Positions 6,941 to 45,077 of a stretch of DNA of 53,342 bases are shown here, in pieces. A program made the position numbers and the translations under genes. Positions within the stretch are counted from its first letter, which is position 1, and each line of letters begins with the position of its first letter. The notes beneath the pieces were generated by a model. That model saw only the letters and a program-made list of their open reading frames with translations, was not told the origin of the DNA and searched no databases. Origin of the DNA: a bacterium (GTDB lineage Bacteria; Bacillota_I; Bacilli_A; RF39; UBA660); contig JAUNSN010000004.1 in NCBI GenBank assembly GCA_030539175.1, forward strand, positions 1 through 53,342, written 5' to 3'.

Positions 6941-7816
6941 TTAATAACCCATTTTCATAATATCTAATATTCTATTTAAATCAGCATTATTTTCAAAATA
7001 TATTAACATCTTTTTATTATTAATTCTAACTTTAGTACCAAGTGTTTCTGATAACGAATTTTCTAAATAGCTATACTCATTACTTTTTTCTTTTCTTGGC
7101 ATAGGAATCTTTTTCTTAACATCCTCAGATGTAGATATCCTTTCTAATTCTCTAACACTTAAGTTATTATCAATAACTAACTTAGCCATTTCTTCAATCT
7201 TTTTATCTTCATCAATCTTACTCAATACTCGCGCATGTCCCATAGATAATTCGTTGCCTAAAACCATATTTTGAACCTTATCAGGCAATCTAAGCAAACC
7301 TAAAGTATTAGTAACATGACTTCTACTTTTACCTAATTTAACAGCCAAATCCTCTTGTCTTATATGTAAGCTATCAATTATTCCCTTATAAGCCCAAGCA
7401 AGTTCAATAGATGACAAATTCTCTCTTTGAATATTTTCCAACAAAGCAATTTCACGCATTTCATCATCAGTAAAATCTCTTACTATGGCTGGAATAGTCG
7501 TTAAACCAGCTAATTTAGAAGCTTTAACACGTCTTTCACCAGCAACTATATAATAACCCTTTACATTCTTTTTAACAATAATAGGTTGAAAAACACCATA
7601 ACTCTTAATAGATTCAGCTAATTCATTTAAAGCATCCATATCAAAGTTTTTTCGTGGTTGATAAGGATTACTCATAACCTCAGATAATTTTATTTCTTTA
7701 ATATCTTTTTCAGTAGCAGATTCAACAATATTAGTTTCAAAAGCATCAAAATCTAAACCATCATTACCAAATAATTGCTCTAACCCTCTACCTAACGCTT
7801 TCTTTTTTTGTTCCAT
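6941..7816 (-). CDS. parB: Chromosome partitioning protein ParB/Spo0J
   Basis: 291 aa. 'ALGRGLEQLF', 'NPYQPR', the 'IVAGERRVKAS' arginine patch, and the HTH 'GKSRSHVTNTLGLLRLP'. Confidence 0.92.
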   Translation of the reverse strand: MEQKKKALGRGLEQLFGNDGLDFDAFETNIVESATEKDIKEIKLSEVMSNPYQPRKNFDMDALNELAESIKSYGVFQPIIVKKNVKGYYIVAGERRVKASKLAGLTTIPAIVRDFTDDEMREIALLENIQRENLSSIELAWAYKGIIDSLHIRQEDLAVKLGKSRSHVTNTLGLLRLPDKVQNMVLGNELSMGHARVLSKIDEDKKIEEMAKLVIDNNLSVRELERISTSEDVKKKIPMPRKEKSNEYSYLENSLSETLGTKVRINNKKMLIYFENNADLNRILDIMKMGY

Positions 7817-14365: not shown

Positions 14366-14455
14366 CCTTCTTCAACTCCTTCTGGAAAATAGTAAATTCT
14401 CCAATATAATTGTATATTAAATATTGATAAAAATCAACATTTTTTAATTATTTTA

Positions 14456-14686
14456 TTAACTTTTCTTTTTATGTGAAAAATTTAATTGAACCGTATTAGT
14501 TAAAATGTCAGAATAACAAAAACTCTTAACTTCGCTATTTCCCACTTTTACTATAAAAATAGCATTATACATTTCTGTTATTTTACCCTCAAATTCTTCT
14601 TTCTTATTTCTACTTCCCTTACATGTTACTTTTACATCATCACCTATTTTTTTCTTTATTTCCGTTTTTATTTTTTCAATAGTCAT
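14456..14686 (-). CDS. veg: Veg protein (biofilm formation stimulator)
   Basis: 76 aa. 'FEGKITEMYNAIFIVKV...FCYSDILTNTVQLNF' parallels B. subtilis Veg. It sits in yabG-veg synteny. Confidence 0.85.
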   Translation of the reverse strand: MTIEKIKTEIKKKIGDDVKVTCKGSRNKKEEFEGKITEMYNAIFIVKVGNSEVKSFCYSDILTNTVQLNFSHKKKS

Positions 14687-14694
14687 TTTATCTC

Positions 14695-15456: not shown

Positions 15457-15586
15457 ATCTATCACCCATTTCAAGTATATGAATAAAATAAAAAGAATAA
15501 TACTATTTTTATATCAACATATAGTAACTATAAAAAGAATCTTTTATTTTATAAAAGATTCTTCTTCTTTAATATAACAATTTTTA

Positions 15587-16396
15587 CTAATGATTAAATA
15601 AAAATTTACTTATTTCAACAAAATCATCAATAGTTAAATTTTCTGCCCTAACGCTTAAATCTTTACCAAGTTTATTTAATATAATTGCCATTAAATTTAA
15701 GTCATAACTATCTAAATTATTCTTTAAAGTCTTTCTTTTTTGTCTAAAACTATCACGTACTAATTTTAAAAATATTGCTTCTTCGTCTTTCGATAATTTT
15801 CTAATTTTTTTATTCATAGATATAACAACACTATCAACGTTAGGTATAGGTTTAAAACAAGTTCTTTTTACAACAAATAGTTTATTAATATTATAATAAT
15901 AATTTAGGCACACAGTTAAAGAATTGTAATTTTTTGTTCCAACATTGGCAGTAATTCTATTTCCTACTTCCAGTTGCATCATTAAAAGAAATTTGTCAGG
16001 AAAAATATTATTTTCAATAAATTTATTAATAATAGCTGTAGTTATATAATAAGGTAAATTAGATACAACAACTAATTTTGACAAATTACAATTTTCTATT
16101 ATTGTAGAAATATCTGCTTTTAAAAAGTCTTGCATTATCAAATTCACATTACTATAACAAGCTAATCTTTTTTTTAAAGTACTTTCTAATCTTCCATCTA
16201 TTTCAAAACATATTAATTTTTTACAAATACTAGCAAGATTACAAGTTAAATTACCGCTACCAGCACCTATTTCAATAACTAATGTATCTTCATCTACTAC
16301 AATATTACTCATTATTTTATCAATAATATTATTATCAATTAAAAAATTTTGGCCCAAAGATTTTTTAAATTTAAATCCATCCATAACATCACCCAC
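15587..16396 (-). CDS. rsmA: 16S rRNA (adenine1518/1519-N6)-dimethyltransferase
   Basis: 'KKSLGQNFL' and the SAM motif 'EIGAGSGNLT'. The start may be the ATG at 16384. Confidence 0.92.
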   Translation of the reverse strand: MGDVMDGFKFKKSLGQNFLIDNNIIDKIMSNIVVDEDTLVIEIGAGSGNLTCNLASICKKLICFEIDGRLESTLKKRLACYSNVNLIMQDFLKADISTIIENCNLSKLVVVSNLPYYITTAIINKFIENNIFPDKFLLMMQLEVGNRITANVGTKNYNSLTVCLNYYYNINKLFVVKRTCFKPIPNVDSVVISMNKKIRKLSKDEEAIFLKLVRDSFRQKRKTLKNNLDSYDLNLMAIILNKLGKDLSVRAENLTIDDFVEISKFLFNH

Positions 16397-16430
16397 ATAT
16401 AAAACATTTAAAAAGAGTTATTACTAACTC

Positions 16431-17156
16431 TTAATAGCCACTTCTTTTTAATACAAAAGTAGTATTCTTACTTGTTGCACCACCTACCCTTGCAGCACTC
16501 TCACTAGCAAAGGCTAAATCTACCCAAACATTACCATTATTCCAAGCATTAATCATACTACCACCTGTATCTAATACAATACCATAAAAAGGTTCTAGTA
16601 TTCCATTATCAACATAAACTATTGAACCACATGGAAATAAGCTTCTTGCTGCTGATAAAATTCTTACACTACCATAAGTCGCATCATTATAATAAATACC
16701 ATTAGTATGAAGATTATGACCTCCACATGCCAATCCACCAGTATTACCACAACCTGCACAATCAGGACCATAACCAGTTAATTTACCAGTATAAGTTCCT
16801 AAACTATCACTTGTCGTTGCAGCAGGAACATTATCGTTTTGTTTAATAACAGCAGCACTTTCTTGTTGTTTTCTTATTTCTTCTTGTTTCTTTAGTTCTT
16901 CTTGTCTTTTTCTTTCCTCTTCTGCTAATCTTGCCTTTTCTTCCTCTTCAGCTTTTAAGCGTGCTTCTTCAGCAAGCATAGCAGCTTCCATTTCTTTTAT
17001 TGTTTCAGCTAACTCAGATGTTTGCCGATAGTCAGTATTACTAACTACAGCAACTTCGTTCATATCTAAATTCTTTGGAAGAGTAACAACAACAAATATT
17101 GCAACAAACAACATTTGAATACCAATTACTCCTACCTTAGAAATTCTTTTTAACAT
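16431..17156 (-). CDS. Secreted or membrane-anchored 3D-domain (RlpA/MltA-like double-psi barrel) protein, YabE-like position
   Basis: N-terminal TM segment, an E/K/R-rich coiled segment, and a Cys/Gly-rich C-terminal domain 'GYGPDCAGCGNTGGLACGGHNL...VLDTGG'. It lies between tatD and rsmA, like B. subtilis yabE. The start is set at the ATG after GAGGTG. Confidence 0.6.
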   Translation of the reverse strand: MLKRISKVGVIGIQMLFVAIFVVVTLPKNLDMNEVAVVSNTDYRQTSELAETIKEMEAAMLAEEARLKAEEEEKARLAEEERKRQEELKKQEEIRKQQESAAVIKQNDNVPAATTSDSLGTYTGKLTGYGPDCAGCGNTGGLACGGHNLHTNGIYYNDATYGSVRILSAARSLFPCGSIVYVDNGILEPFYGIVLDTGGSMINAWNNGNVWVDLAFASESAARVGGATSKNTTFVLKRSGY

Positions 17157-17209
17157 TCTTTCACCTCTAATTTTTTTCCCTGAGTAAATAAATTTTACCA
17201 CAATAAAAA

Positions 17210-17959
17210 CTAAAAGTCAAATAGCTGATAAACATTACTAGTAGTAATATTTTCCACCTCTTTTGAAGATACACCCTTAATTTCAGCTATCTTATTACAT
17301 ATTTCTCTTATATAACAAGGTTCATTTTTTTTATTTCTAAAAGGATCTGGTGTTAAATAAGGACTATCAGTTTCTAATACTATCCACTTTAAATCTACAT
17401 TTTTAACTACCTCACATAATTTTTTGGCATTTCTAAATGTTATTATACCCCCTACACCCAAATATATTCCTAATTGATTAAATTTATGTGCCATCTCTAC
17501 ACTACCACTATAACAATGTAAAATACCCTTATTACCTTTCTCTTTTAATATATCATATGTATCTTTAATCGCATCTCTACTATGAATAATAACAGGTTTA
17601 TTATATTTTAAAGCAATATCTAATTGTTTTTTAAAAAGATTTATTTGTTTTTGTTTATCCTTAATATCATAATAATAATCTAAACCAATTTCACCTATTC
17701 CTAATATTTTTTTACAATTAATATTATCTTCTAACCATTTTAAATCTTCATTCAAAGCATCAGAGATATAATTAGGATAAAAACCTAAAGTCCCGTGAAC
17801 ATTATCATATTTTGTAACTAATTCCAACACCTCTTTATTACTAATCATATCATAACCATTTACAATTATTATATTCACATCTTTTTTTAATGACCGTTTT
17901 ATAACATCAGAAATATCATTATAATACTCTTTAAATAAATGACAATGTGTATCTACCAT
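17210..17959 (-). CDS. tatD: TatD-family metal-dependent DNase/hydrolase
   Basis: 'VDTHCHL', 'GEIGLDYYY' and 'IHSRDA' motifs. The ATG follows a GGAGGAAGTT RBS. Confidence 0.92.
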   Translation of the reverse strand: MVDTHCHLFKEYYNDISDVIKRSLKKDVNIIIVNGYDMISNKEVLELVTKYDNVHGTLGFYPNYISDALNEDLKWLEDNINCKKILGIGEIGLDYYYDIKDKQKQINLFKKQLDIALKYNKPVIIHSRDAIKDTYDILKEKGNKGILHCYSGSVEMAHKFNQLGIYLGVGGIITFRNAKKLCEVVKNVDLKWIVLETDSPYLTPDPFRNKKNEPCYIREICNKIAEIKGVSSKEVENITTSNVYQLFDF

Positions 17960-17998
17960 AACTTCCTCCAAAATAAAATTATACTAATAATAGTATAA

Positions 17999-18160
17999 TT
18001 AAGATTTAATATTTAATAATTTAATATATATAAGTAACACTATACAAAAATAAATTAAATCTATAAAACTAAAATTTACTACTAAAGAAATACTTAAAAC
18101 TACCAACAGCATTAATACAAAACAAAACTTACGTATTGCTCCAATTAATGTAATAAGCAA
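17999..18160 (-). CDS. Candidate small hydrophobic protein (53 aa, TTG start)
   Basis: An AAAGGAGG RBS lies 9 nt before the TTG. The product is LITLIGAIRKFCFVLMLLVVLSISLVVNFSFIDLIYFCIVLLIYIKLLNIKS. It is below the ORF-track length cut-off and I recognise no homology. Confidence 0.25.
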   Translation of the reverse strand: MLITLIGAIRKFCFVLMLLVVLSISLVVNFSFIDLIYFCIVLLIYIKLLNIKS

Positions 18161-18201
18161 TTTTATCTGCCTCCTTTAAATACAAATATAGATTAACATA
18201 T

Positions 18202-18249
18202 AAAAAAAAGAATGTAAATTATTTTACAAACTTTCACAAAAGTTTACAT
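18202..18249 (-). terminator. Intrinsic terminator after spoVT
   Basis: Nested stem on the minus strand (ATGTAAA...AAACTTT-TGTG-AAAGTTT...TTTACAT), followed by T8. Confidence 0.55.
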
Positions 18250-18780
18250 CTATTCGACAAAATATTTAGACAATAAATTAGCTAAAACTACAGCCATTTT
18301 TTCTTCATACTCCAATAATTGACCTTCCGTACAAATAATTATAACTCCACCAATACAATCACTATTTGAAATAATTGAAGAAAAAGAATATACACAAAAT
18401 TCATCTACATCATCGACAAAATTCATTGTCTTTTTTTGTCTTTCAACAAAACTATCACGTCTTTCAATCGAACGTTCGACAAATTCGGTTATAGTCTTAT
18501 CAATATATTTAGTTTTAAGACTACCACTAGCTGCAATCACCTTATCTCTATCAGTAACGATAACATTGTGTTTAATTGTTTTCTGGATGGCATCTGCATA
18601 TTTTGTAGCAATAGTTTCCATACTTTCAATAGCAGAATATTTTTTTAATATCAAATTTTCCTCATCAACCATTATTTCTAAACTATCGCCATTTTTTATT
18701 CGTAAATTTTTTCTAATTTCTTTAGGAATTACAATTCTTCCTAAATCATCAATTCTTCTAATAACTCCAGTAGTTTTCAT
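18250..18780 (-). CDS. spoVT: Stage V sporulation transcriptional regulator SpoVT (AbrB family)
   Basis: 176 aa. 'TGVIRRIDDLGRIVIPKEIRKNLRIKNGDSLEI' is a SpoVT/AbrB swapped-hairpin domain, followed by a GAF-like C-terminal domain. It lies downstream of mfd, as in Bacillus. Confidence 0.93.
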   Translation of the reverse strand: MKTTGVIRRIDDLGRIVIPKEIRKNLRIKNGDSLEIMVDEENLILKKYSAIESMETIATKYADAIQKTIKHNVIVTDRDKVIAASGSLKTKYIDKTITEFVERSIERRDSFVERQKKTMNFVDDVDEFCVYSFSSIISNSDCIGGVIIICTEGQLLEYEEKMAVVLANLLSKYFVE

Positions 18781-28705: not shown

Positions 28706-29116
28706 TTATCGTTTATTGATAAAAAAAGATTTCAAAATTTGTCCACATGCTGCAGTATCATCATCTGATTTTTCCACAAGTAATTTATGTTCAAGATTAT
28801 AGTTGCTCATTTTTTCCACACCATATACAACACGAGAAATTCTAGCAGCTTTAATAGCAGCCATACACATATCACAAGGCATTAAAGTCACATACATAGT
28901 TGTATCATCTAATCTCCAATCTTTTATTTTTCGCGATGCAGAAATAATTGCGATTATTTCTGCATGCATAATAGCACATCCCTTATTCTCCTTTTGATTA
29001 TATCCCCTACCAATTATTTTATCATTTTTAACAATAACAGCACCAACTGGCACTTCATCATTGTTAAAAGCTTTACAAGCTAATTTATAAGCTTCTTTCA
29101 TATATTTATTAACCAC
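28706..29116 (-). CDS. tadA: tRNA-specific adenosine deaminase
   Basis: 'EVPVGAVIV', 'HAEIIAI' and 'PCDMCMAA' deaminase zinc motifs. The start is uncertain: GTG 29116 lies 9 nt after GGAG, with ATG 29125 and ATG 29101 as alternatives. The ORF-track extension to 29206 runs through the SRP RNA. Confidence 0.88.
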   Translation of the reverse strand: MVNKYMKEAYKLACKAFNNDEVPVGAVIVKNDKIIGRGYNQKENKGCAIMHAEIIAIISASRKIKDWRLDDTTMYVTLMPCDMCMAAIKAARISRVVYGVEKMSNYNLEHKLLVEKSDDDTAACGQILKSFFINKR

Positions 29117-29140
29117 AACAATCATCTCCAATATTATTAC

Positions 29141-29221
29141 AAATAAAAGATGCACACAATAATTAAGTGTTAAAGCTGCTACCTTCCGGTCCTGACTTGG
29201 TTCCACTATTATTGTTGCATC
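29141..29221 (-). ncRNA. ffs: Signal recognition particle RNA, small (4.5S-like) type
   Basis: The minus strand reads GAUGCAACAAUAAUAGUGGAACCAAGUCAGGACCGGAAGGUAGCAGCUUUAACACUUAAUUAUUGUGUGCAUC-UUUUAUUU. It contains the conserved domain-IV core GUCAGG-NCC-GGAA-GGN-AGCAGC. Relative to E. coli UCC..GGA it has the compensatory pair ACC..GGU. It closes with long terminal helices (GAUGCA/UGCAUC, CAAUAAU/AUUAUUG). A promoter lies at the right distance. Confidence 0.82.
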
Positions 29222-29227
29222 AACTAC

Positions 29228-29256
29228 ACTATAACACTTTATTTTATTTTAATCAA
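29228..29256 (-). promoter_or_regulatory. Sigma-A-type promoter for the SRP RNA (TTGATT-17-TATAGT)
   Basis: -35 TTGATT at 29251-29256 and -10 TATAGT at 29228-29233 on the minus strand, with a 17-nt spacer. The predicted start site coincides with the 5' end of the SRP terminal helix. Confidence 0.55.
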
Positions 29257-29447
29257 GTATTTAACATGAGTTTTCCACATATTTATTCATCACCAACCGC
29301 AACTACTTCAATTTTACACAAACATATTGCAATTTTGAATTTTTTGTTCATATATATAATACAATTATTAATTTTCTGACATATATAACCTTGCAGTTAT
29401 TAAAAAACTGCAGTAAATTTCAACGAACATTGCTCCAAAAAAGTCCA

Positions 29448-29463
29448 TGTTTCACGTGGAACA
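29448..29463. promoter_or_regulatory. parS site 1 (TGTTTCACGTGGAACA)
   Basis: Exact reverse complement of the B. subtilis-type parS TGTTCCACGTGAAACA. Flanked by A..T to give an 18-bp element. Confidence 0.85.
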
Positions 29464-29501
29464 TGAAACCATTATAATTAATACCCCCTATCTCTTTCAT
29501 T

Positions 29502-29552
29502 ATGTTACACCTCTAACATTGTTTTAACTATTTCATGTTAGAGGTGTAACAT
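29502..29552. repeat. Inverted repeat 1: ATGTTACACCTCTAACAT - 15 nt - ATGTTAGAGGTGTAACAT
   Basis: Perfect 18-bp arms. The loop is TGTTTTAACTATTTC. On the plus strand it is followed by G-T8. Each arm is a parS-like 16-mer whose central CACGTG is replaced by CACCTC. Confidence 0.9.
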
Positions 29553-29597
29553 GTTTTTTTTGAATACATCATAAATTTTTTATAAAAACTTGATTTA

Positions 29598-29613
29598 TGT
29601 TCCACGTGAAACA
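29598..29613. promoter_or_regulatory. parS site 2 (TGTTCCACGTGAAACA)
   Basis: Exact match to the parS consensus TGTTNCACGTGAAACA. Confidence 0.85.
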
Positions 29614-29737
29614 TAACGCAGAAATTTATTTTCTGCAACATTGTTATTGTAATTTTTAAATTTCTACAGCAAAAATATTACAAAACAAACAAAAATGCTA
29701 CCATATTATATAACTAAAGTTCCTATTTCATATTTCA

Positions 29738-29753
29738 TGTTTCACGTGGAACA
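29738..29753. promoter_or_regulatory. parS site 3 (TGTTTCACGTGGAACA)
   Basis: Identical to site 1, 290 bp downstream of it. Confidence 0.85.
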
Positions 29754-29791
29754 TGAAACCATTATAATTAATACCCCCTATCTTTTTCATT

Positions 29792-29842
29792 ATGTTACAC
29801 CTCTAACATTGTTTTAACTTTGTTATGTTAGAGGTGTAACAT
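29792..29842. repeat. Inverted repeat 2 (same 18-bp arms, loop TGTTTTAACTTTGTT)
   Basis: Perfect arms, 290 bp from repeat 1. Followed by GAATTTTTTT on the plus strand. Confidence 0.9.
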
Positions 29843-29888
29843 GAATTTTTTTGAATACATCATAATTTTTTTATAAAAACTTGATTTA

Positions 29889-29904
29889 TGTTCCACGTGA
29901 AACA
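29889..29904. promoter_or_regulatory. parS site 4 (TGTTCCACGTGAAACA)
   Basis: Identical to site 2, 291 bp downstream of it. Confidence 0.85.
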
Positions 29905-30028
29905 TAGCGTAGAATTTTATTTTCTGCAACCTTGTTATTGTAATTTTTATATTTCTGACATATATACCTTGCAGTTATTAAAAAATTGCAATAAATTTTA
30001 ACAAACATCACTGCAAAAAAAGAGTCTA

Positions 30029-30044
30029 TGTTCCACGTGGAACA
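30029..30044. promoter_or_regulatory. parS site 5 (TGTTCCACGTGGAACA, perfect palindrome)
   Basis: Fully symmetric parS variant, 291 bp from site 3. Confidence 0.85.
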
Positions 30045-30081
30045 TGAGAACACAGAATTTAATAGCTTCCATTTTTTCGTC

Positions 30082-30132
30082 ATGTTACACCTCTAACATT
30101 ACTTTAACTTTTTCATGTTAGAGGTGTAACAT
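30082..30132. repeat. Inverted repeat 3 (same 18-bp arms, loop TACTTTAACTTTTTC)
   Basis: Perfect arms, 290 bp from repeat 2. The flanks are diverged, but the arms and the loop core TTTAACT are conserved. Confidence 0.9.
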
Positions 30133-30179
30133 AAAGTTTTCTTAATACTTCATGAATTTTGAACAAAATACCTAATCTA

Positions 30180-30195
30180 TGTTCCACGTGGAACA
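30180..30195. promoter_or_regulatory. parS site 6 (TGTTCCACGTGGAACA, perfect palindrome)
   Basis: Fully symmetric parS variant, 291 bp from site 4. Confidence 0.85.
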
Positions 30196-30330
30196 TGATG
30201 TAAAAAATCATTTTTAGCACTAATTTAAATGCAGTTATTGTTTTTCTGCTACTGTTAATACACAGTATTTAAAAAGTTGCAACATTTATTCAATAACAAA
30301 TTATAATTAACAAAAATATCCACAGTATTA

Positions 30331-30368
30331 CAAAAAAATGTAGGTTATATTACCAAATACAACCTACA
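30331..30368 (-). terminator. Intrinsic terminator after gyrA
   Basis: The minus strand reads TGTAGGTT-(14 nt)-AACCTACA followed by TTTTTTT, 15 nt after the gyrA stop. Confidence 0.7.
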
Positions 30369-30382
30369 CATACATTTGTTTG

Positions 30383-32845
30383 TTAAATATCGTGTGCATT
30401 CAAATCATTTTCCACAACTTCATCTTCAGCGTCTGTTTTATCGATTAGGGATGCGGATGAAACGAATTGATTATCACGTAAATTAATTAATTTTACTCCT
30501 TGAGTAACTCGGTTTAATACAGATATTTGATTAACATCCAATCTTATAACAATTCCTTCATTGGTAATAATCATCAAATCTTCATCCCCATTAACTGTTT
30601 TAAATGAAATTATATCTCCATTTTTTTCAGTAATATTTAAAGTTTTTACTCCTTTACCACCACGATTAGTTATTCGATATTCACCTATTGGAGTTCTTTT
30701 TCCATAACCACGAGTTGTAAGAACCAACACATCTTGATTTTCATTAACTACTTCTAAGCCCACTAAGTTACAAGAATCACCCAATGTAATACCTTTAACA
30801 CCAGCTGCGACTCTTCCCATTACTCTAATAGAATCCTCGTTAAATCTAACCATTCGACCGTTTGAACCAGCCATCAAAATATCACAATTACCTGTAGTTT
30901 TCTTAACAGCAATTAATTCATCATCGTCACGTAAAGTTATAAATTTCTTACCAGTAGTTCTAATGTTTTCAAATTCTGATATATCTGTACGTTTAACATA
31001 ACCTAACTTAGTTCCAAAAATTAAATATTTTTCCACATCATTATGCGATATTCGCAATATAGCCATTATTTTTTCGTTATTATCCAAAGATAATAAATTA
31101 ATAATAGGTAATCCTTTCGATTGTCTAGAAAACTCAGGTATTTCATATCCTTTAATTCGATAAACTTTTCCACAACTACTAAAGAATAATATATAATCAT
31201 GAGTAGTAGCATTAGTCATTAACTCAACATAATCTTCATCATTTGTACTCATACCTTTAATTCCTACACCACCACGATTTTGAGTTTTATAAGTATTTAA
31301 AGGCAACCGCTTTATATACCCTTTATCAGTTAAAGTTAAAACAATATTTGCAACAGGTATCAAAGACTCATCTTCTATATAATCAATAGCAGTCATATCT
31401 ATAATTGTTTTTCTATCATCACCATACTTATTTTTTATTTCTAATAATTCTTCTTTTATAATCGTTAATACCCTCTCATCACTTGACAATATATCTTTTA
31501 AATCTTTTATTAACAATTCTAATTCTTTTAATTCACCAAGTATTTTATCACGTTCTAAACCAGTTAATCGCCTCATTCTCATATCTAATATCGCTTTTGC
31601 TTGAATCTCTGTCAAAGAAAATCTATTAATCATTTCATTCATTGCATCTACATCAGTCTTTGAACTTTTTAATATTTGTACTATTTCATCAATATTATCA
31701 AGAGCTATCTTTAACCCCTCTAATATATGGGCACGATTTAAAGCCTTTTCTAAATCATACTTAGTTCTTCTAACAATAACTATTCTTTGATGCTCTAAAT
31801 ACTTCTCAAGTATTTCCTTAATATTTAAAATACGTGGCTGTCCATCAACTAAAGCTAACATATTAATCCCATACGATGTTTGCAATGATGTATGTTTATA
31901 TAAATTATTTAATACCACATTAGCATTAGCATCTCTTTTAACATCTATAACTACTTTCATACCATTACGATTAGATTCATCAACTATTGTTGCTATACCA
32001 TCAATAGTTTTTTCTTTTACCAAATCAGCAATACGACTAATTAAATTAGCTTTATTCACTTGATAGGGAATCTCAGTGATAATTATTTTATCTTTATTTC
32101 CAGTAGTATCAATATTTACTTTAGATCTTATAGTAATAGTACCCTTACCTGTAGTATATGCTTTAACAATTCCAGCATTACCCAAAATAGAAGCACCTGT
32201 TGGAAAGTCCGGACCTTTTATAACTGATATAATATCCATAATATCTACATCGGGATTATCAATTAACATAACTATTCCATCAATAACTTCTCGTAAGTTA
32301 TGTGGGGGAATATTAGTCGCCATTCCAACGGCAATACCAGTCGAACCGTTAACTAATAAATTAGGAAATCTTGCTGGTAATACGACTGGTTCTTTTTCAC
32401 TTGCATCAAAATTATCCATAAAATCAACAGTATTCTTACCTATATCACGAATCAATTCTGAAGTTATTTTTGCCATTCTTGCTTCCGTATAACGCATTGC
32501 CGCCGCGCCATCTCCATCAACACTTCCAAAATTTCCATGACCATCAACAAGTAAATACCTAATTGAAAAATCTTGAGCTAATCTTACTAATGCATCATAA
32601 ACCGAAGAATCTCCATGAGGATGATACTTACCTAAAACATCACCAACTATTCTTGCACATTTTCGATGAGGTTTGTCGGCTGTTAAACCAAGCTCGTGCA
32701 TAGAGTAAATAATTCTTCTATGTACTGGCTTAAACCCATCTCTTACATCTGGTAAAGCACGTGCGACTATAACACTCATTGCATAGTTCAAAAAAGAAGT
32801 TTGTACTTCATTTGATAAATTAATATCAATTAATTTTTCTGCCAT
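30383..32845 (-). CDS. gyrA: DNA gyrase subunit A
   Basis: 820 aa. 'DGFKPVHRR', '[17 protein letters not shown]', and the catalytic '[10 protein letters not shown]'. Confidence 0.98.
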
Positions 32846-36012: not shown

Positions 36013-36483
36013 TTATTTATCTTTCCCAAAAGAAATGTTTCTTCGCTTTGATAATTCATTAATAAGCTTCATAATCCTAGTAATTTGATTATCAATAATA
36101 CGATAAGATACATCTAATTTTAAACTAACGTTATTAACAAATACAATAACCGTCCCACCATCATCACTATAATACTTCAAAATATTATTATAAGATATCC
36201 ACTTACAACCAAGATAATTTCTTGAAGATGCTGTTGGAAAAAATATAATATTGTTAGTTTCCTCAATAATAATTGGTGGTTTTACATTGGAAGATATAAT
36301 TGATGTAATACCTTCTTTTCTTCCCTCTAAAGAACTACCATAAAATTTACAACTATGATTAATTATAGACTTAGCTGTTGCATTGATTAAAATTTTATCA
36401 TTTCCTTCATACACATAGCTAGAATTATTATCAATGGGAAATATTGCTAAAGTATCTCGACCAATTTCATATTCCTTTATCAT
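36013..36483 (-). CDS. comK: Competence transcription factor ComK family protein
   Basis: 156 aa. 'YEIGRDTLAIFP', 'INHSCKFYGSSLEGRKEGITSIISSNVKPPIIIEETNNIIFFPTASSRNYLGCKWISYNNI' and 'VSYRIIDNQITR' align closely with B. subtilis ComK (CRFFGSSYAGRKAGT...HKPPIMVDPSNQIFLFPTLS...CGWIS). Confidence 0.9.
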   Translation of the reverse strand: MIKEYEIGRDTLAIFPIDNNSSYVYEGNDKILINATAKSIINHSCKFYGSSLEGRKEGITSIISSNVKPPIIIEETNNIIFFPTASSRNYLGCKWISYNNILKYYSDDGGTVIVFVNNVSLKLDVSYRIIDNQITRIMKLINELSKRRNISFGKDK

Positions 36484-37717: not shown

Positions 37718-37884
37718 AGCTCATATAGCCATAAACAATATAAATATTTTTTTTATTATATTCTTTCTTTATATTAATAATAATAACATTGTGGAAACTG
37801 TGGATAACTATTATAAACACTTTTAAAATAAGGTGAAAATTACATTTTTCACATGTGGATAAATTGTTGAAAAGTGTTTATTTA
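37718..37884. other. oriC sub-region in the dnaA-dnaN spacer: DnaA boxes plus an AT-rich unwinding candidate
   Basis: Perfect TGTGGATAA boxes at 37799-37807 and 37854-37862. A near-box TTGTGGAAA lies at 37789-37797. An almost pure A/T stretch at 37731-37788 lies on the dnaN side. Confidence 0.8.
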
Positions 37885-39237
37885 TCAACAACCTAGATTT
37901 TTCTTTAAATCTTTTAAAATAAATTTTATCTGTTCATTAGTTTTGCTTTCTTTTTTAATCTTTTCATAGGAATGCATAATAGTTGAATGATCTCTTCCAC
38001 CAAAATTAGAAGCAATTCGAGGAAAAGATTCATTAGTTAATATCCGACAATAATAAATAGCCACCTGCCTAGGAACAGTAATAGTCTTGTTTCTTTTTTT
38101 TCCTTTTAAATCATCCACAGAAACATGAAAATATTCCGCGACTACCTTTTGAATTCTAGCAATATCGTTTTTAAACATTACTTTACTAGTTAATTGATCT
38201 TTTAATGCATCAACTGCTACATCTAATGTCATTTTTCCACTATTCATCATTAAGGCAAAAGCAAATACCCTAGTAATAGCTCCCTCTAATTGTCTAATAT
38301 CACTATCAAAATTATTAGCGATATATTCAATAACCTCTTGTGGAACATCATCAGCGCCCTCTTGATGAATAATCTTTCTATTTATAATACTCACCCGTAA
38401 ATCAAAATCAGGTGGAAACAAATTAGCGGTTAATCCCCAAGAAAACCTAGTTCTAAGACGTTCCTCTAAAAGTTTTAAATCATCCACAGATCTATCAGAT
38501 GCAATAATAATTTGCTTATTAGATGTATATAATTCATTAAAAGTATGAAAGAACTCTTGTTGAGATTGAATAGCCCCTTCCAAAAACTGAATATCATCAA
38601 TTAACAAAACATCAACATTACGATATTTTTTTTTAAAACTTTCAATTAATTCATAATTATCTTTTTCTTTACTCCTAACTGTGGAAATAAAATCTGTAAC
38701 AAACATATCACTAGTAACATATAAAACTTTTTGATTAGAATTTTCAATAATATAATTACCTATTGCATGCATTAAGTGAGTTTTCCCCAGCCCACTTTTC
38801 CCATATAAAAACAGTGGATTATAAGCTTTACCTGGTTTTTCAGCAACTGACATAGCTGCCGTATAAGCAAACTTATTACTTGTACCAACCATAAAAGAAG
38901 CAAAGGTATAATTAGCACTTAAATTAGCATCACTACTACTTACATGAGGAACACCAATATCAACTTCTTTAACAACAACTTCCTGTTTTACTTCGTCCTC
39001 AGACAAATAAGTAAAATTAAAATTAGTTCCAGTTAAATTATTAAAAGTAGTAGAAATAACATTATCATAATTCTCCTGTAAATGTTTTTTATGCAAATTA
39101 AGAGGTACAACAATAGTAGCATTATTCTTTTCTAATTTAGCCAATTTCGTATCTTTAAACCAAGTCTCATAAGCTAAAGAAGAAATCTGTTCTTTAATTT
39201 GATTTAAAAAATTTCCCCATAATGCGTCTGTATTCAT
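37885..39237 (-). CDS. dnaA: Chromosomal replication initiator protein DnaA
   Basis: 'LFLYGKSGLGKTHLMHAIGN' Walker A, 'LLIDDIQFL', and the C-terminal DNA-binding 'GGRDHSTIMHSYEKI'. The start is set at the ATG after an AGGGAGGT RBS (MNTDALWGNFL...). Confidence 0.97.
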   Translation of the reverse strand: MNTDALWGNFLNQIKEQISSLAYETWFKDTKLAKLEKNNATIVVPLNLHKKHLQENYDNVISTTFNNLTGTNFNFTYLSEDEVKQEVVVKEVDIGVPHVSSSDANLSANYTFASFMVGTSNKFAYTAAMSVAEKPGKAYNPLFLYGKSGLGKTHLMHAIGNYIIENSNQKVLYVTSDMFVTDFISTVRSKEKDNYELIESFKKKYRNVDVLLIDDIQFLEGAIQSQQEFFHTFNELYTSNKQIIIASDRSVDDLKLLEERLRTRFSWGLTANLFPPDFDLRVSIINRKIIHQEGADDVPQEVIEYIANNFDSDIRQLEGAITRVFAFALMMNSGKMTLDVAVDALKDQLTSKVMFKNDIARIQKVVAEYFHVSVDDLKGKKRNKTITVPRQVAIYYCRILTNESFPRIASNFGGRDHSTIMHSYEKIKKESKTNEQIKFILKDLKKNLGC

Positions 39238-39259
39238 TATATACCTCCCTATACCCATG

Positions 39260-39446
39260 TTATCCACAACTACATTTTACCTTACTTTTTCCAAGTTGTG
39301 AAGTACTTTTTTTAATTTCCCCAGCATTTCCACAAATTATCCACAGTTTTTCCACAACGAAAACTACCATTAACAAACAGAAATCGACATTTATCCCCAA
39401 AAATCAACAAATTTCTTTTCCCCAATGTGTAAAACTGTTATCCACA
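39260..39446 (+). other. oriC sub-region upstream of dnaA: cluster of six same-orientation DnaA boxes
   Basis: Perfect TTATCCACA boxes at 39260-39268, 39337-39345 and 39438-39446. Near-boxes are ATTTCCACA at 39326-39334, TTTTCCACA at 39348-39356, and TTATCCCCA at 39391-39399. Confidence 0.85.
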
Positions 39447-39483: not shown

Positions 39484-39515
39484 AAAAACAAGAAAAAGAC
39501 GCTCAACGCGTCTTT
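39484..39515 (-). terminator. Intrinsic terminator of the HerA-like gene
   Basis: The minus strand reads AAAGACGC-GTTGA-GCGTCTTT followed by TTCTTGTTTTT. The stem overlaps the stop codon. Confidence 0.7.
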
Positions 39516-41295
39516 ATGTATTATTTTGCTGTGGTAATTCAACCATCCATCTAGCATAAACATCTGGATTAGCACTATGAGGTTCTGGATTAGGTAAATC
39601 CATTTTAACTATCATAGGTATTTTCATCATTTTTCCAAAAGCAACACAAGTACCAGCTTGTAGTGTTTTTTGTTTTTCCACAATCTCTTCACTAATATTA
39701 GGAACCATTTTTCGAACATATTCTAAATCGGTTGGATGATTTAGTTTAAAAATCATAAAATTAGAACATTGAGAAATAACGGTTTCTGATAATTCAGTTG
39801 GTCGTTGAGTAATTAAATCAAGTACTAGTCCAAACTTTCTCCCTTCTTTAGCGATTCGCTCGAAAATATTATAACCAAGTATTTCTAAATCAATATCTTT
39901 TTGCACAAACCTATGGGCTTCTTCAATCATAATATTAATAGGCATAACACCTCGCTCTGGCATTTCTTTAGTGAATTTAAATAAAATTCTCGAATAAATT
40001 TTAACAATCGCTTTAGCAAATCTATCATCAACATCTTCTAAAGTAAAATTAATTATTTGCGCTCGTCTTTGAGAATCAACCATAATTAAATTAGTAATAT
40101 ATTGATTTAAAGTAACGAAAGTATCATATTGAAAATATTTACCGTAATTTCCATTAATAATAGAATTAAGTTTAACTTTTAATGCAGTAGCTTCCCCGTA
40201 ACTCTTATCATTTAATAAAAGGCCTTCTGATATTAAAGTAAAATTCAAAGCAACAGCTAAATCTTCTAATGTAAAATAAACAGGTACATAATCTGATTTC
40301 CACTTTTTGTCTTTAATAATAAATTGTTCAATATATTTAGTAACTAATATTTGCTCAACAAAGTATCCTTCGCTATCAATATCAAAACACTTTCTTAATT
40401 GTCTTGTATAACCAATACCAGGTATTTCAACATTAAAATTTAATTCATTAGTATTACAAGTAGTTAAAATAGAAAATATTTGATCTCTAATTCTAGCAGT
40501 AACTTGATTACTATACATTACTGATAAAATAGCTGAAGCAATTAAATGATTCTGATAAATATTAGATTCTTCATCTTTTTTAGCAAAAATTGAAACATAA
40601 CTAAGAGTTTGTTCAATAACGCTAAGTTGAAAATAAGAAGTAACATCAAACATATTAGCAAAATCATCTACTGACATTAACCAAAGAGGGATTCTAAGTA
40701 TTTCAGAATTAGCTTCTAATTGTTCGATATTAGTTGAATATAATTTATAATTAAAATTAGGATTAATCTTATTTATATCTTTAAAAGAATTATGATATTC
40801 ACTAGTAGAATTAAAGATAAATAGATTACTATTAAAAGGAATAATATTTCCCATAGAAAATAAGTTTTGTACTACTCTAGCAACTCCATAAGTTTTCCCA
40901 CTACCAGTATTGCCAAAAAAAGCTGAATGATTACTAAAAAATTCGTTAATATCAACCTTAATAGGAAAGTCATTATAAAGTGGTGCCTTTCCCAGTAGCA
41001 TATTTCCATGCTTTTCGTTACCAACTAAAATAGATAACTCGTTATCATTAATAATTCGTATTGTCGCACTTAAACTAGGTTTGCGAATAATTCCACTTAA
41101 AAACTTATCATCAACAAATTCGCCTAAAAAACTAATAACTATTTGATTATTATTAACCTCTTTTATCTCACCTAATATTCTCTTAGTCCCATCTTCAAAT
41201 ATCACATTGTAATTTAATAAATCATCTGCAACAGCATTATTACCTAAAGAAACTAAAGCAAAATTTTTACTAATTGCTATGATTTTACCAAACAT
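39514..41295 (-). CDS. HerA/DUF87-type P-loop ATPase (putative hexameric translocase)
   Basis: About 593 aa. N-terminal barrel-like 'GKIIAISKNFALVSL...LGEIKEV', Walker A 'FFGNTGSGKTYGV', Walker B 'INIMIEEAHRFV', and 'EGRKFGLVLDLITQRPTELSETVISQCSNFMIFKL', which is typical of HerA-like ATPases. The start is set at the ATG after GAGGTG-N6. Confidence 0.8.
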   Translation of the reverse strand: MFGKIIAISKNFALVSLGNNAVADDLLNYNVIFEDGTKRILGEIKEVNNNQIVISFLGEFVDDKFLSGIIRKPSLSATIRIINDNELSILVGNEKHGNMLLGKAPLYNDFPIKVDINEFFSNHSAFFGNTGSGKTYGVARVVQNLFSMGNIIPFNSNLFIFNSTSEYHNSFKDINKINPNFNYKLYSTNIEQLEANSEILRIPLWLMSVDDFANMFDVTSYFQLSVIEQTLSYVSIFAKKDEESNIYQNHLIASAILSVMYSNQVTARIRDQIFSILTTCNTNELNFNVEIPGIGYTRQLRKCFDIDSEGYFVEQILVTKYIEQFIIKDKKWKSDYVPVYFTLEDLAVALNFTLISEGLLLNDKSYGEATALKVKLNSIINGNYGKYFQYDTFVTLNQYITNLIMVDSQRRAQIINFTLEDVDDRFAKAIVKIYSRILFKFTKEMPERGVMPINIMIEEAHRFVQKDIDLEILGYNIFERIAKEGRKFGLVLDLITQRPTELSETVISQCSNFMIFKLNHPTDLEYVRKMVPNISEEIVEKQKTLQAGTCVAFGKMMKIPMIVKMDLPNPEPHSANPDVYARWMVELPQQNNT

Positions 41296-41502
41296 AAAAA
41301 ACACCTCTCTATTCATAAAAACATTATAACAAAAAAAATAAATAAAAGAAACATTTTTTTTAAGGAAATTAAAAATAGTAATAATTAACTAAATATAAAG
41401 TTTTATTATCAAAAAATTTTAGTAGCCACTATATTTTGCCAATCTAACTTAAGACATTATTACAAATTAGTCAATCTTTTTTAACTTTACCACTTAAGAA
41501 TG

Positions 41503-43626: not shown

Positions 43627-44973
43627 ATGAATGATACAATTGCTGGTATAGCAACCTCAAAAGGAGTTGGTGCGATAAGCATAATAAGAGTAAGTGGAGA
43701 AGAAGCCATTAGCATCACTAACAAAATATTTAATAAGGACTTAAATAAAGTTAATACTCATACTATTCATTATGGTTATATAAAAGATAATGAAAAAATA
43801 ATTGATGAAGTTCTAGTAACTGTTATGAGAAAACCAAAGAGTTATACAACAGAAGATATAGTAGAAATAAATTGTCATGGTTCAATTTCAACTTGTGAAA
43901 GTATCCTACAATTATTAATAAAAAACGGGACCAGACTAGCTGAACCAGGAGAGTTTACGAAACGAGCATTTTTAAATGGTAGAATAGATTTAGTAGAAGC
44001 TGAAAGTATTATGTCTTTAATATCCTCAACAACTAATAAAGCCAGGGATATATCGATTAGTCAATTATCAGGAACAGCATCTGCTAATATAAAGTTGTTG
44101 CGCCAAGAAATTCTCGATATAATATCTCTTATAGAAGTTAATATTGATTATCCAGAATATGAAGATATTAGTGTATTAACAAATGAAGAACTTTTACCAC
44201 AAATAAATAACATAATCAAAAAATTAGATGATATTTTAAAAATTTCTCATACAGCAAGAATATATACAAATGGAATAAAAGTTGGAATAGTTGGAAAACC
44301 CAATGTTGGAAAATCTAGTTTATTAAACGCTTTGTTAAACGAAGATAAAGCTATAGTGACTAGTATTCCTGGAACTACTACTGATATAGTAGAGGGGAAT
44401 ATTAAAATAAATGATTTACTATTACAAATAACAGATACGGCAGGTATAAGAGAAAGTACTAATAAGATAGAAGAATTAGGGGTAGAAAAAAGCAAACAAA
44501 TAATCCATTCAAGTGAATTAATATTATTAGTTTTAAACAACAATGAAGAATTTACCAAAGAAGATGAATTATTAATAGAAAGTATAAAAGATAAACCGCA
44601 TATTATCATTATTAATAAGATAGATTTAGAACAAAAATTAATATTGCCATCTATATATAAAGCAATATATATAAGTATAGAAAATAAACAAGGGTTAGAA
44701 GAACTAAAACAAACAATAAATAATATGTTTAATAGTGATAATATTAAAACAGAAAATCCAACATATTTAACAACATCAAGAACACTTGGTTTAATAGAAA
44801 AAGCAAAAAATTTATTGTTAAAAAGTAAACACGCAATCAAAGAAGCAACTCCAATAGATATAGTAGAAATAGATATAAAAGAAGCATGGCAAGTATTAGG
44901 AGAGATAACAGGAGAATACTATACAACAGAAATGATAGATAATATATTTGCAAATTTTTGTTTAGGAAAATAA
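43627..44973 (+). CDS. mnmE: tRNA modification GTPase MnmE
   Basis: 448 aa. 'DTIAGIATS', G1 'GKPNVGKSSLLNAL', 'DTAGIR', and the C-terminal 'FCLGK'. Confidence 0.96.
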   Translation: MNDTIAGIATSKGVGAISIIRVSGEEAISITNKIFNKDLNKVNTHTIHYGYIKDNEKIIDEVLVTVMRKPKSYTTEDIVEINCHGSISTCESILQLLIKNGTRLAEPGEFTKRAFLNGRIDLVEAESIMSLISSTTNKARDISISQLSGTASANIKLLRQEILDIISLIEVNIDYPEYEDISVLTNEELLPQINNIIKKLDDILKISHTARIYTNGIKVGIVGKPNVGKSSLLNALLNEDKAIVTSIPGTTTDIVEGNIKINDLLLQITDTAGIRESTNKIEELGVEKSKQIIHSSELILLVLNNNEEFTKEDELLIESIKDKPHIIIINKIDLEQKLILPSIYKAIYISIENKQGLEELKQTINNMFNSDNIKTENPTYLTTSRTLGLIEKAKNLLLKSKHAIKEATPIDIVEIDIKEAWQVLGEITGEYYTTEMIDNIFANFCLGK

Positions 44974-45077
44974 AAAATTCTTTACTTATTTATTCACATT
45001 TGCTATAATACAGTAATGAGCGAAAAGCTCCTTGCTTACTATATAAAGTAAGCCTTAGTCCAAAGGGAGGTGTAAAA

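What the first reader, a model, noticed from the sequence alone, without database searches (positions are those of the whole stretch)
29448..30195. Six consensus parS sites packed into a 3 x 291-bp tandem array in a noncoding gap next to oriC
Six 16-mers match the Firmicute parS consensus TGTTNCACGTGAAACA. Four are exact B. subtilis-type sites in alternating orientation, and two are the perfectly symmetric TGTTCCACGTGGAACA. They alternate at about 150 and 140 bp with an exact 290/291-bp period. They lie inside the 1.18-kb gene-free gap between gyrA and the SRP RNA/tadA, roughly 7.5-9 kb from the dnaA-flanking DnaA boxes.

Units 1 and 2 are near-identical. Unit 3 has diverged almost everywhere except at the palindromes, which argues for selection on the sites rather than a recent duplication artefact.

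Established knowledge: ParB/Spo0J nucleates on parS, spreads or slides as a CTP-dependent clamp, and loads SMC. In B. subtilis the origin-proximal sites are single, dispersed over hundreds of kb, and mostly inside genes, including spo0J itself. By eye I saw no parS inside this window's parB or anywhere else here. A compact intergenic multi-parS centromere looks more like plasmid centromeres or the clustered sites of some Actinobacteria and Myxococcus. It would be an unusual architecture for a Firmicute chromosome.
Basis: partly seen in the sequence, partly recalled or inferred. Interest (0 to 1): 0.78.

Follow-up and report, generated by a model that had tools for sequence, protein, structure and literature searches.

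The report
Tandem parS centromere array beside oriC
Six perfect ParB-binding (parS) sites in three 290-bp tandem repeats between gyrA and the SRP RNA gene are very probably this uncultured low-GC Bacilli bacterium's chromosomal centromere; relatives keep parS arrays at the same spot, so it is real but ordinary, apart from an unexplained conserved hairpin-forming repeat in each unit.

Summary
Six perfect parS sites lie at exactly the stated coordinates, inside a 2.9-copy, 290-bp tandem array, 7.6-9.2 kb from the DnaA-box clusters. There are no others in the 53 kb.

The centromere reading is well supported. A canonical ParA/ParB pair is encoded in the window. Unit 3 has diverged to about 67% identity in its spacers yet keeps the sites. 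Ten relatives chosen by GyrA similarity alone all carry parS or near-parS sites in the same gyrA-to-SRP RNA gap. Their repeat periods range from 28 to about 455 bp, with no homology outside parS.

The claim that this is unusual for a Firmicute is not supported. A scan of species-representative genomes hit its 120-locus limit. Of those loci, 53 have at least 4 and 23 have at least 6 perfect sites per kb, including Lachnospiraceae, Christensenella and many low-GC Bacilli. Published work calls clustering the norm and B. subtilis scattering the exception.

Each unit holds a perfect 18-nt-arm inverted repeat whose arms are parS-like with a changed core. It is 100% conserved in all three units, absent elsewhere, and unexplained.

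Verdict: a new member of a known kind, of modest interest.

The parts
29363..30240 (.). Tandem array of three ~290-bp units. Each unit runs spacer, parS-A, inverted repeat, parS-B, tail.
   Evidence: TRF gives period 290, 2.9 copies, score 1006. Direct-repeat families D1-D4. Three-unit alignment. No credible ORF and no Rfam family.
29448..29463 (.). parS-1, TGTTTCACGTGGAACA
   Evidence: 0 mismatches to TGTTNCACGTGAAACA on the minus strand.
29598..29613 (.). parS-2, TGTTCCACGTGAAACA
29738..29753 (.). parS-3, TGTTTCACGTGGAACA
29889..29904 (.). parS-4, TGTTCCACGTGAAACA
30029..30044 (.). parS-5, the symmetric TGTTCCACGTGGAACA
   Evidence: It differs from parS-1 only at degenerate position 5.
30180..30195 (.). 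parS-6, the symmetric TGTTCCACGTGGAACA
   Evidence: It differs from parS-2 only at degenerate position 12.
29502..29552 (.). Inverted repeat 1: ATGTTACACCTCTAACAT, 15 nt, ATGTTAGAGGTGTAACAT. Each arm is a parS-like 16-mer with 2 core mismatches.
   Evidence: pair I22, 18/18 complementary.. As single-stranded DNA it folds at -16.6 kcal/mol, z = -7.7.
29792..29842 (.). Inverted repeat 2, arms identical to repeat 1
   Evidence: I24.: -17.4 kcal/mol, z = -8.7.
30082..30132 (.). Inverted repeat 3, arms identical although unit 3 has diverged
   Evidence: I25; arms 36/36 identical, loop 12/15.: -16.9 kcal/mol, z = -9.2.
30338..30369 (-). Terminator-like hairpin of gyrA; right-hand boundary of the free gap
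   Evidence: 14-bp stem followed by a T-run, just after the gyrA stop.
29134..29256 (-). SRP RNA gene (29134-29231) with a promoter-like site (29228-29256); left-hand boundary of the gap
   Evidence: RF00169, 62 bits. (TTGATT, 17 nt, TATAGT, with a TG extension).
30383..32845 (-). gyrA, the conserved flank on the origin side
   Evidence: NF004043, 1195 bits.
28706..29206 (-). tadA, the conserved flank on the other side, followed by dnaX, ybaB and recR
6941..7816 (-). ParB (Spo0J-type), the presumed parS-binding CTP clamp
   Evidence: TIGR00180, 192 bits; 201 bits to B. subtilis Spo0J (6sdk), with the GERR motif; specificity residues R173/T179/R184/G201, the parS type according to PMC7383237.
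7788..8603 (-). ParA (Soj-type ATPase). No noc gene lies beside it.
   Evidence: The upstream neighbour is a metallophosphoesterase on the other strand.
37799..39446 (.). oriC region: DnaA-box clusters on both sides of dnaA (37885-39267)
   Evidence: perfect boxes at 37799, 37854, 39260, 39337 and 39438. GC-skew switch near 41 kb.

Best explanation
The array is the origin-proximal chromosomal centromere, or its main part, of an uncultured, very AT-rich (26% GC) Bacilli/Mycoplasmatota-related gut-type bacterium.

Mechanism, inferred from established ParABS biology:
- Dimers of the ParB encoded at 6941-7816 nucleate on each of the six 16-bp parS palindromes.
- They close into CTP-bound sliding clamps and spread over the neighbouring few kilobases (gyrBA, SRP RNA, tadA-dnaX).
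- The resulting partition complex is moved by ParA (7788-8603) and serves as the loading point for SMC next to oriC.

The multi-site array arose by tandem duplication, unequal exchange and gene conversion of a segment carrying two parS sites. Selection holds the parS sequences while the spacers drift.

The locus, just downstream of gyrA and upstream of the SRP RNA gene, is the fixed home of parS in this whole clade. Site number, spacing and repeat period turn over quickly there.

Each unit also carries a 51-bp perfect inverted repeat whose arms are parS-like: one perfect half-site TGTTACAC plus one altered half-site TGTTAGAG. My best guess is a derived pair of closely spaced parS copies, 33 bp centre to centre, within the 28-51 bp seen in relatives. 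It is now kept either as an auxiliary low-affinity ParB site or as the site of another dyad-symmetric protein. This part is conjecture.
For: Shown directly:
- Six perfect sites against 0.09 expected, and none elsewhere in 53 kb.
- Tandem structure.
- Selection: units 1 and 3 are 66/68 identical in the four elements but 67/100 in the core spacers (p = 5e-7). The only two parS changes fall on the consensus N position and its symmetric mate.
- Origin proximity.
- ParB is closest to B. subtilis Spo0J (E = 1.7e-58) and keeps the GERR CTP-binding motif, the N-terminal LGRGL peptide, and parS-type specificity residues R173 and G201. ParA lies adjacent.

Comparative evidence:
- Ten GyrA homologue clusters were chosen only by similarity (66-71% identity). 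Every one has parS or near-parS sites in the same gyrA-to-SRP RNA gap, and almost none elsewhere in the 5-14 kb read.
- The patterns are 3 sites at 37 bp; 3 at 45-51 bp; at least 5 at 28 bp; 3 at 40 and 51 bp (the first inside the gyrA 3' end); 2 at 61 bp; 3 at 37-41 bp; 5 at 42 bp; 1 perfect plus 1 degenerate; and 7 in a ~455-bp unit holding two sites.
- About 15 further low-GC Bacilli genomes show gyrA-[4-10 parS]-tadA-dnaX-ybaB-recR.
- The arrays share no sequence beyond parS.

Against a mobile origin: the repeat arm occurs six times in the window, all inside the array. Viral and metagenome scans gave only isolated single-arm hits, with no partner arm and no parS nearby. There is no plasmid or phage match.
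Against: - There is no binding, spreading or segregation data. The organism is uncultured, and the contig is its only record.
- Only 53 kb of the genome is available, so other parS sites elsewhere cannot be excluded. Whether this array is the dominant centromere is unknown.
- One parS usually suffices for segregation in model species (PMC7333895). The six-fold multiplicity may therefore be neutral rather than selected.
- Copy number in a short-read metagenome contig can be misassembled.
- The inverted repeat has no parallel in the 25 related loci, and its role is conjecture.
Confidence: 0.85

Rival explanations
1. Neutral repeat expansion. One or two parS sites are functional, and the 3 x 290-bp array is a recent, selectively irrelevant slippage or unequal-exchange product. 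Neither the number nor the architecture of the sites has meaning.
For: The cores of units 1 and 2 are 93-95% identical, which suggests recent copying. Relatives manage with 2-3 sites. Periods vary freely from 28 to 455 bp. A single parS is often sufficient in model species (PMC7333895).
Against: Unit 3 is old (67% spacer identity) yet keeps both parS sites and both repeat arms intact, so at least three units' worth of sites have been maintained (p = 5e-7). Multi-site arrays recur independently in most relatives, which suggests that multiplicity itself is favoured.
Confidence: 0.25
2. The array is mainly a ParB-dependent regulatory element, in the manner of KorB or VirB. It would control the adjacent SRP RNA/tadA-dnaX genes or gyrBA, rather than act as a segregation centromere.
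For: The sites lie directly between a terminator and a promoter. parS-A overlaps a weak promoter-like match, TTCACG-16-TATAAT, in units 1 and 2. ParB-family CTP switches can regulate transcription (PMC10770331, listed).
Against: Promoter-like matches in the region are no more frequent than in shuffles (10 found against 12 expected). The match is lost in unit 3. In most other phyla the clusters sit beside parAB or dnaA instead, so the common denominator is origin proximity rather than these genes. ParB here is an ordinary Spo0J type with ParA.
Confidence: 0.07
3. The 290-bp unit is a mobile or dispersed repeat (MITE- or REP-like), or a remnant of a plasmid or phage partition site, that happens to carry parS-like palindromes.
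For: It has tandem structure and a long perfect inverted repeat inside each unit.
Against: There is no other copy of the arm or of parS in 53 kb. Only chance-like single-arm hits appear in viral and metagenome contigs. There is no blastn match in 72,556 plasmid or 50,697 phage records. The syntenic position is conserved across the clade.
Confidence: 0.03
4. For the inverted repeat only: it is a plus-strand intrinsic terminator or small hairpin RNA rather than a protein-binding DNA site.
For: The stable 18-bp stem is followed by T8 in unit 1 and T7 in unit 2. A promoter-like match lies about 25 nt upstream in units 1 and 2.
Against: Both the T-run and the promoter-like match decay in unit 3, while the 36 arm bases stay invariant. 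There are no compensatory changes, only absolute sequence conservation. The 15-nt loop and AT-rich stem are atypical, and the scan did not call it a terminator. It matches no Rfam family. No plus-strand gene needs terminating here.
Confidence: 0.15

Closest known systems
B. subtilis Spo0J/Soj-parS system (consensus TGTTNCACGTGAAACA)
   Same: The 16-bp sequence is identical. ParB is the closest solved homologue (201 bits to 6sdk). ParA is present, the location is origin-proximal, and the gene order of the region is B. subtilis-like (dnaA-dnaN-recF-gyrB-gyrA ... tadA-scr-dnaX-ybaB-recR).
   Different: B. subtilis has eight sites scattered over about 0.75 Mb. From my own knowledge, most lie inside genes, one of them in spo0J. 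Here six sites lie in 750 bp of non-coding tandem repeat, with none in parB. The parAB operon lies about 22 kb from the array and has no noc gene beside it.
Clustered chromosomal parS centromeres (Corynebacterium glutamicum, Pseudomonas aeruginosa, Caulobacter, Streptomyces, Myxococcus; gut Clostridia in Hi-C studies)
   Same: Several consensus sites are packed near oriC. They are presumed to nucleate one ParB complex and a single SMC entry zone (PMC7083940, PMC4368675, PMC7333895, PMC10197239).
   Different: Published clusters are usually described on a scale of a few to tens of kilobases ('within 5-40 kb'). This one is denser, about one site per 145 bp, and is an explicit tandem repeat. My scan shows that such dense arrays are nevertheless common in uncultured genomes.
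Plasmid tandem-repeat centromeres, e.g. F sopC (twelve 43-bp repeats, each with a SopB-binding inverted repeat; from my own knowledge)
   Same: It is an intergenic array of direct repeats, each carrying a ParB-family binding palindrome. The 28-, 37-, 42- and 44-bp arrays in relatives look very like sopC.
   Different: The site is the chromosomal parS consensus, not a plasmid-specific one. The locus is chromosomal and syntenic. The unit in this window is much longer (290 bp) and holds two sites plus an extra element. There is no similarity to any plasmid record.
Noc-NBS nucleoid occlusion sites (ATTTCCCGGGAAAT)
   Same: In sister lineages, exact NBS palindromes sit inside the same gyrA-tadA gap, interleaved with parS (L035 x3, L042 x3, L028, L066, L118). 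The window's inverted repeat occupies a comparable place between parS sites.
   Different: The window has no NBS at up to 2 mismatches in 53 kb and no noc next to parA. The repeat arms keep the parS-type bases at the specificity positions (G1, A6) and differ at positions 5 and 7, so they are not NBS (PMC7383237).

Membership tests
Chromosomal ParABS centromere (parS) | 16-bp palindrome matching the TGTTNCACGTGNAACA consensus | tested here: met
   Six sites with 0 mismatches against 0.09 expected at up to 2 mismatches.
Chromosomal ParABS centromere (parS) | Origin-proximal position | tested here: met
   The array lies 7.6-9.2 kb from the DnaA-box clusters flanking dnaA. GC skew switches near 41 kb.
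Chromosomal ParABS centromere (parS) | Cognate ParB with a parS-type helix-turn-helix and a CTP-binding motif, plus ParA, in the same genome | tested here: met
   ParB at 6941-7816 has GERR, R173/T179/R184/G201 and conserved Q162, G170-S172, N178 and R204. ParA is at 7788-8603.
Chromosomal ParABS centromere (parS) | Sites maintained by selection and conserved at the orthologous locus in relatives | tested here: met
   Conservation of the four elements versus spacers gives p = 5e-7. Ten of ten GyrA-selected relatives have parS or near-parS sites in the same gap.
Chromosomal ParABS centromere (parS) | ParB binding and spreading in vivo, ParA-driven segregation, SMC loading | not testable with these tools
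   Needs ChIP-seq, in vitro binding assays or Hi-C. The organism is uncultured.
Dispersed or mobile repeat (MITE/REP-like) | Multiple copies at unrelated loci; presence in other genomes or mobile elements | tested here: not met
   Arm copies occur only inside the array. Viral and metagenome scans gave only single-arm hits with no partner arm and no parS. There are no plasmid or phage matches. The rest of the source genome could not be examined.
Noc binding site (NBS) | ATTTCCCGGGAAAT palindrome | tested here: not met
   Zero matches at up to 2 mismatches in the window. NBS is present in 10 related loci.
Intrinsic terminator (for the inverted repeat) | G+C-rich short stem, small loop, and a U-tract conserved with the stem | tested here: inconclusive
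   A stable stem is followed by a T-run in units 1 and 2, but the T-run decays in unit 3. The loop is 15 nt, the arms are 33% G+C, and the scan did not call it.
Known structured RNA (Rfam) | A match at or above a family's gathering score | tested here: not met
   Only sub-threshold generic hairpin matches to eukaryotic miRNA models were found.

The most novel reading that the evidence does not exclude
The gyrA-SRP RNA gap may be a composite 'centromere hub' in this clade. In that reading, parS arrays are deliberately interleaved with a second palindromic element. In several sister lineages that element is a Noc NBS. In this lineage, which shows no NBS and no noc beside parA, it would be a new 51-bp dyad built from half-parS arms (ATGTTACACCTCTAACAT, N15, reverse complement). 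The dyad would then be a functional, lineage-specific cis element. It could be a binding site for a diverged ParB/Noc-family or other dyad-symmetric protein, or a half-site that modulates ParB clamp loading or SMC entry. It would not be a decaying parS pair.
Probability: 0.2. Interest if true: 0.6.

Novelty: new member of a known kind. Interest (0 to 1): 0.33.

Why it matters
As a single locus it adds little. It is a textbook parS centromere in an uncultured bacterium.

The comparison is the useful result. In one clade the centromere stays at one fixed intergenic address while its repeat architecture is rebuilt again and again. Periods run from 28 to about 455 bp, sites number from 2 to 10, and no homology survives outside the 16-mer.

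That is a natural data set for a question the field lists as open: why parS sites multiply and cluster, and what drives this over evolutionary time (PMC7333895).

The results also correct the B. subtilis-centred expectation that Firmicute parS sites are scattered and intragenic.

Two side observations could be worth a biochemist's afternoon:
- the invariant half-parS dyad in each unit;
- the interleaving of Noc sites with parS in sister lineages.

Tried and rejected
- **Exact-protein look-up of the window's ParB.** It is not on record. GyrA and ParB are 100% identical only to this contig. No closer strain or rest-of-genome sequence could be obtained, so a whole-genome parS census was impossible.
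- **Coding potential of the gap.** Only trivial short ORFs were found, such as MFHVEH, which is read straight from ATGTTCCACGTGGAACAT. Rejected.
- **Rfam at permissive threshold.** Only generic hairpin hits to eukaryotic miRNA models. Rejected.
- **Mobile, plasmid or phage origin.** Rejected.
- **NBS identity of the inverted repeat.** Rejected.
- **A changed ParB explaining the variant-core arms.** Rejected. The recognition helix GKSRSHVTNTLGLLRLP and the RTRG signature are shared with relatives that have only canonical parS (90 of 118 homologues).
- **Homology between the window's 290-bp unit and the similar two-site unit of the relative L178.** Only the parS sites match.
- **Extended dyad symmetry across the whole parS-A to parS-B segment.** By inspection of the sequence, the sites are 71.5 and 78.5 bp from the hairpin centre and the spacers are unrelated. 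Rejected.
- **Livny et al. 2007.** The paper could not be read, so I cite it only through reviews.
Full report

Yes. The six 16-mers are at 29448, 29598, 29738, 29889, 30029 and 30180, exactly as listed. Four are TGTTCCACGTGAAACA in alternating orientation, and two are the symmetric TGTTCCACGTGGAACA. At up to 2 mismatches the pattern matches nowhere else in the 53,342 bases. Shuffles give 0.09 matches on average, against 12 observed when both strands are counted.

Tandem Repeats Finder reports a single array at 29363-30196, with period 290, 2.9 copies and score 1006.

The gap is bounded on the left by the SRP RNA gene (29134-29231, minus strand, 62 bits) and its promoter-like site. On the right it is bounded by the gyrA terminator-like hairpin (30369-30338).

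Perfect DnaA boxes cluster on both sides of dnaA, at 37799/37854 and at 39260-39446. GC skew changes sign near 41 kb. The array therefore lies 7.6-9.2 kb from oriC.

**2.

Each unit also contains a perfect inverted repeat: ATGTTACACCTCTAACAT, then 15 nt, then ATGTTAGAGGTGTAACAT. The three copies are at 29502-29552, 29792-29842 and 30082-30132.

Each arm is itself parS-like. TGTTACACCTCTAACA has 2 mismatches to the symmetric consensus, both in the central CACGTG. The six arms are the only other sites in the window at up to 2 mismatches. In half-site terms, each arm is one perfect half (TGTTACAC) plus one altered half (TGTTAGAG). The perfect halves face outward.

The units are also mosaic. The spacer ahead of parS-A is 87-88% identical between units 1 and 3 but unrelated in unit 2. 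The cores of units 1 and 2 are 93-95% identical. This pattern fits unequal exchange and gene conversion within an array.

**3. Selection on the sites**

Between unit 1 and the diverged unit 3, the 68 bases of the two parS sites and the two arms are 66/68 identical. The intervening spacers are 67/100 identical (Fisher p = 5e-7).

The only two differences fall on the consensus N position and its symmetric partner. The 36 arm bases are invariant, while the loop is 12/15 identical.

The gap has no credible ORF and matches no known RNA family.

**4. The protein partners**

ORF 6941-7816 is a ParB. Its best solved homologue is B. subtilis Spo0J (6sdk, 201 bits). It has the N-terminal LGRGL peptide and the GERR motif.

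Using the numbering and conserved anchors of Jalal et al. 2020 (PMC7383237), it carries R173, T179, R184 and G201. R173 and G201 are the parS-type specificity residues. The same RTRG signature occurs in 90 of 118 close homologues.

ParA is adjacent at 7788-8603. No noc gene lies next to parA: the upstream neighbour is a metallophosphoesterase. The window has no Noc site at up to 2 mismatches.

**5. Whose genome is it?**

GyrA and ParB are 100% identical only to this contig. The best other matches are 70-71% (GyrA) and 74-75% (ParB) identical. Where named, they are called 'Bacilli bacterium', 'Erysipelotrichaceae bacterium' or 'Candidatus Pelethosoma'. NCBI places the last in Mycoplasmatota incertae sedis.

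The window has B. subtilis-like origin-region synteny and carries sporulation genes (yabP, yabG, spoVT). I infer an uncultured low-GC Bacilli lineage of the RF39-like kind. The exact order was not determined.

**6. Comparative evidence**

*(a) Sample not biased by parS.* I took ten GyrA homologue clusters chosen only by similarity and contig length, and read the DNA downstream of gyrA. Every one has parS or near-parS sites in the gyrA-to-SRP RNA gap and essentially none elsewhere in the locus:

| Locus | Sites in the gap |
|---|---|
| L121 | 3 sites, 37 bp apart |
| L123 and L177 | 3 sites, 51 and 45 bp apart |
| L124 | at least 5 copies of a one-mismatch variant, in 28-bp repeats interrupted by an assembly gap |
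| L172 | 3 sites, 40 and 51 bp apart, the first inside the last codons of gyrA |
| L173 | 2 sites, 61 bp apart |
| L174 | 3 sites, 41 and 37 bp apart |
| L175 | 5 sites, 42 bp apart (2 perfect, 3 with one mismatch) |
| L176 | 1 perfect site plus 1 degenerate |
| L178 | 7 perfect TGTTCCACGTGGAACA sites in a 1.46-kb gap, in a ~455-bp unit holding two sites |

L178 has the same style of array as the window.

About 15 of these loci are low-GC Bacilli with the order gyrA-[4-10 parS]-tadA-dnaX-ybaB-recR. One of them, L119, has nine sites in a 332-bp two-site unit.

Most of the others, from many phyla including Lachnospiraceae, Oscillospiraceae and Christensenella, have the cluster just upstream of parA-parB or near dnaA. 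Of the 120 loci, 53 have at least 4 and 23 have at least 6 perfect sites within 1 kb.

The window's unit and L178's unit share nothing beyond parS. The arrays are therefore rebuilt repeatedly at a fixed address.

**7. Rival readings**

- *Mobile or dispersed repeat.* There are no further arm or parS copies in the window. The arm 18-mer occurs in 15 viral and 31 metagenome contigs, but always singly, without a partner arm (best partner 6-10 mismatches) and without parS. The whole gap has no blastn match among plasmid or phage records.
- *Regulatory operator.* Promoter-like matches are not enriched, and the one overlapping parS-A is lost in unit 3.
- *Terminator or small RNA for the dyad.* The stem is stable (-16.6 to -17.4 kcal/mol, z = -7.7 to -9.2) and is followed by T-runs in units 1 and 2. 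The T-run decays in unit 3 while the arms stay invariant. This remains possible but is not favoured.
- *Neutral multiplicity.* This cannot be excluded. However, the old unit 3 keeps all its sites, and arrays recur across the clade.

**8. Comparison with what is known**

Function and membership are those of a chromosomal parS centromere. Every computationally testable defining feature is met. Binding and segregation are untested.

The published view is that clustered parS is usual, and that the scattered B. subtilis arrangement is restricted to a few lineages (bioRxiv 10.1101/2020.12.04.411900). Gut Firmicutes examined by Hi-C have parS clusters, with several sites in one 5-kb bin (PMC10197239).

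What is less well documented is the density, about one site per 145 bp, and the sopC-like tandem-repeat form. My scans show that this too is common in uncultured genomes. I found no paper describing the gyrA-adjacent arrays of this clade. That is only a statement about the library searched.

**9. Verdict**

This is a real, functional-looking centromere array, and a new member of a known kind. Modest extra interest comes from three things:
- the clade-wide pattern of a fixed locus with fast-changing architecture;
- the invariant half-parS dyad, which none of the 25 related loci shares;
- the interleaving of Noc sites with parS in sister lineages.

Interest score: 0.33.

Noticed in passing
L035:1273-1609, L042:2854-3012, L028:1454, L066:1756, L118:1363; one-mismatch copy in L123/L177: Exact Noc-binding palindromes (ATTTCCCGGGAAAT) sit inside the gyrA-tadA gap of sister lineages, interleaved with the parS array. 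In L035 there is one per repeat unit, about 24 bp from a parS. Nine of the 20 exact NBS copies listed are in this gap (a further one, in L172, lies outside it). The window itself has none in 53 kb and no noc beside parA.
   Followed up: partly
window 36013-36483 (-): A ComK-family protein (PF06338, E = 4e-35) is encoded between dnaN and recF. B. subtilis has yaaA at that position. The gene is conserved there in all eight relatives whose locus extended that far.
   Followed up: partly
window 39514-41316 (-): A 600-aa HerA/DUF87-type ATPase lies immediately upstream of dnaA, between the DnaA-box cluster and rnpA. It has weak matches to anti-phage and repair HerA models, well below their cut-offs.
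   Followed up: no
window 6941-8603 and 43627-45365: The parAB operon is not in the B. subtilis-type position after mnmE-mnmG-rsmG-noc. Here mnmE is followed directly by rpsF-ssb. parAB sits on the other replichore about 31 kb from dnaA, between a gltX/Zn-peptidase block and a metallophosphoesterase.
   Followed up: no
L124:8588-8704, L035:1487-1586: Assembly gaps (runs of N) fall inside the parS tandem arrays of two relatives. Copy numbers of such arrays in short-read MAGs are therefore unreliable, and the same caution applies to the window's three units.
   Followed up: no
L042:2840-3110: The gap of this relative repeats ATTATGTAAAC three to four times next to the NBS copies. From memory this resembles the XerD arm of Firmicute dif sites. 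It may be chance in AT-rich DNA.
   Followed up: no
window 13716-18780: Sporulation-associated genes (yabP, yabG peptidase, spoVT, divIC) are present. This reduced, 26%-GC lineage may still sporulate, or has only recently stopped.
   Followed up: no
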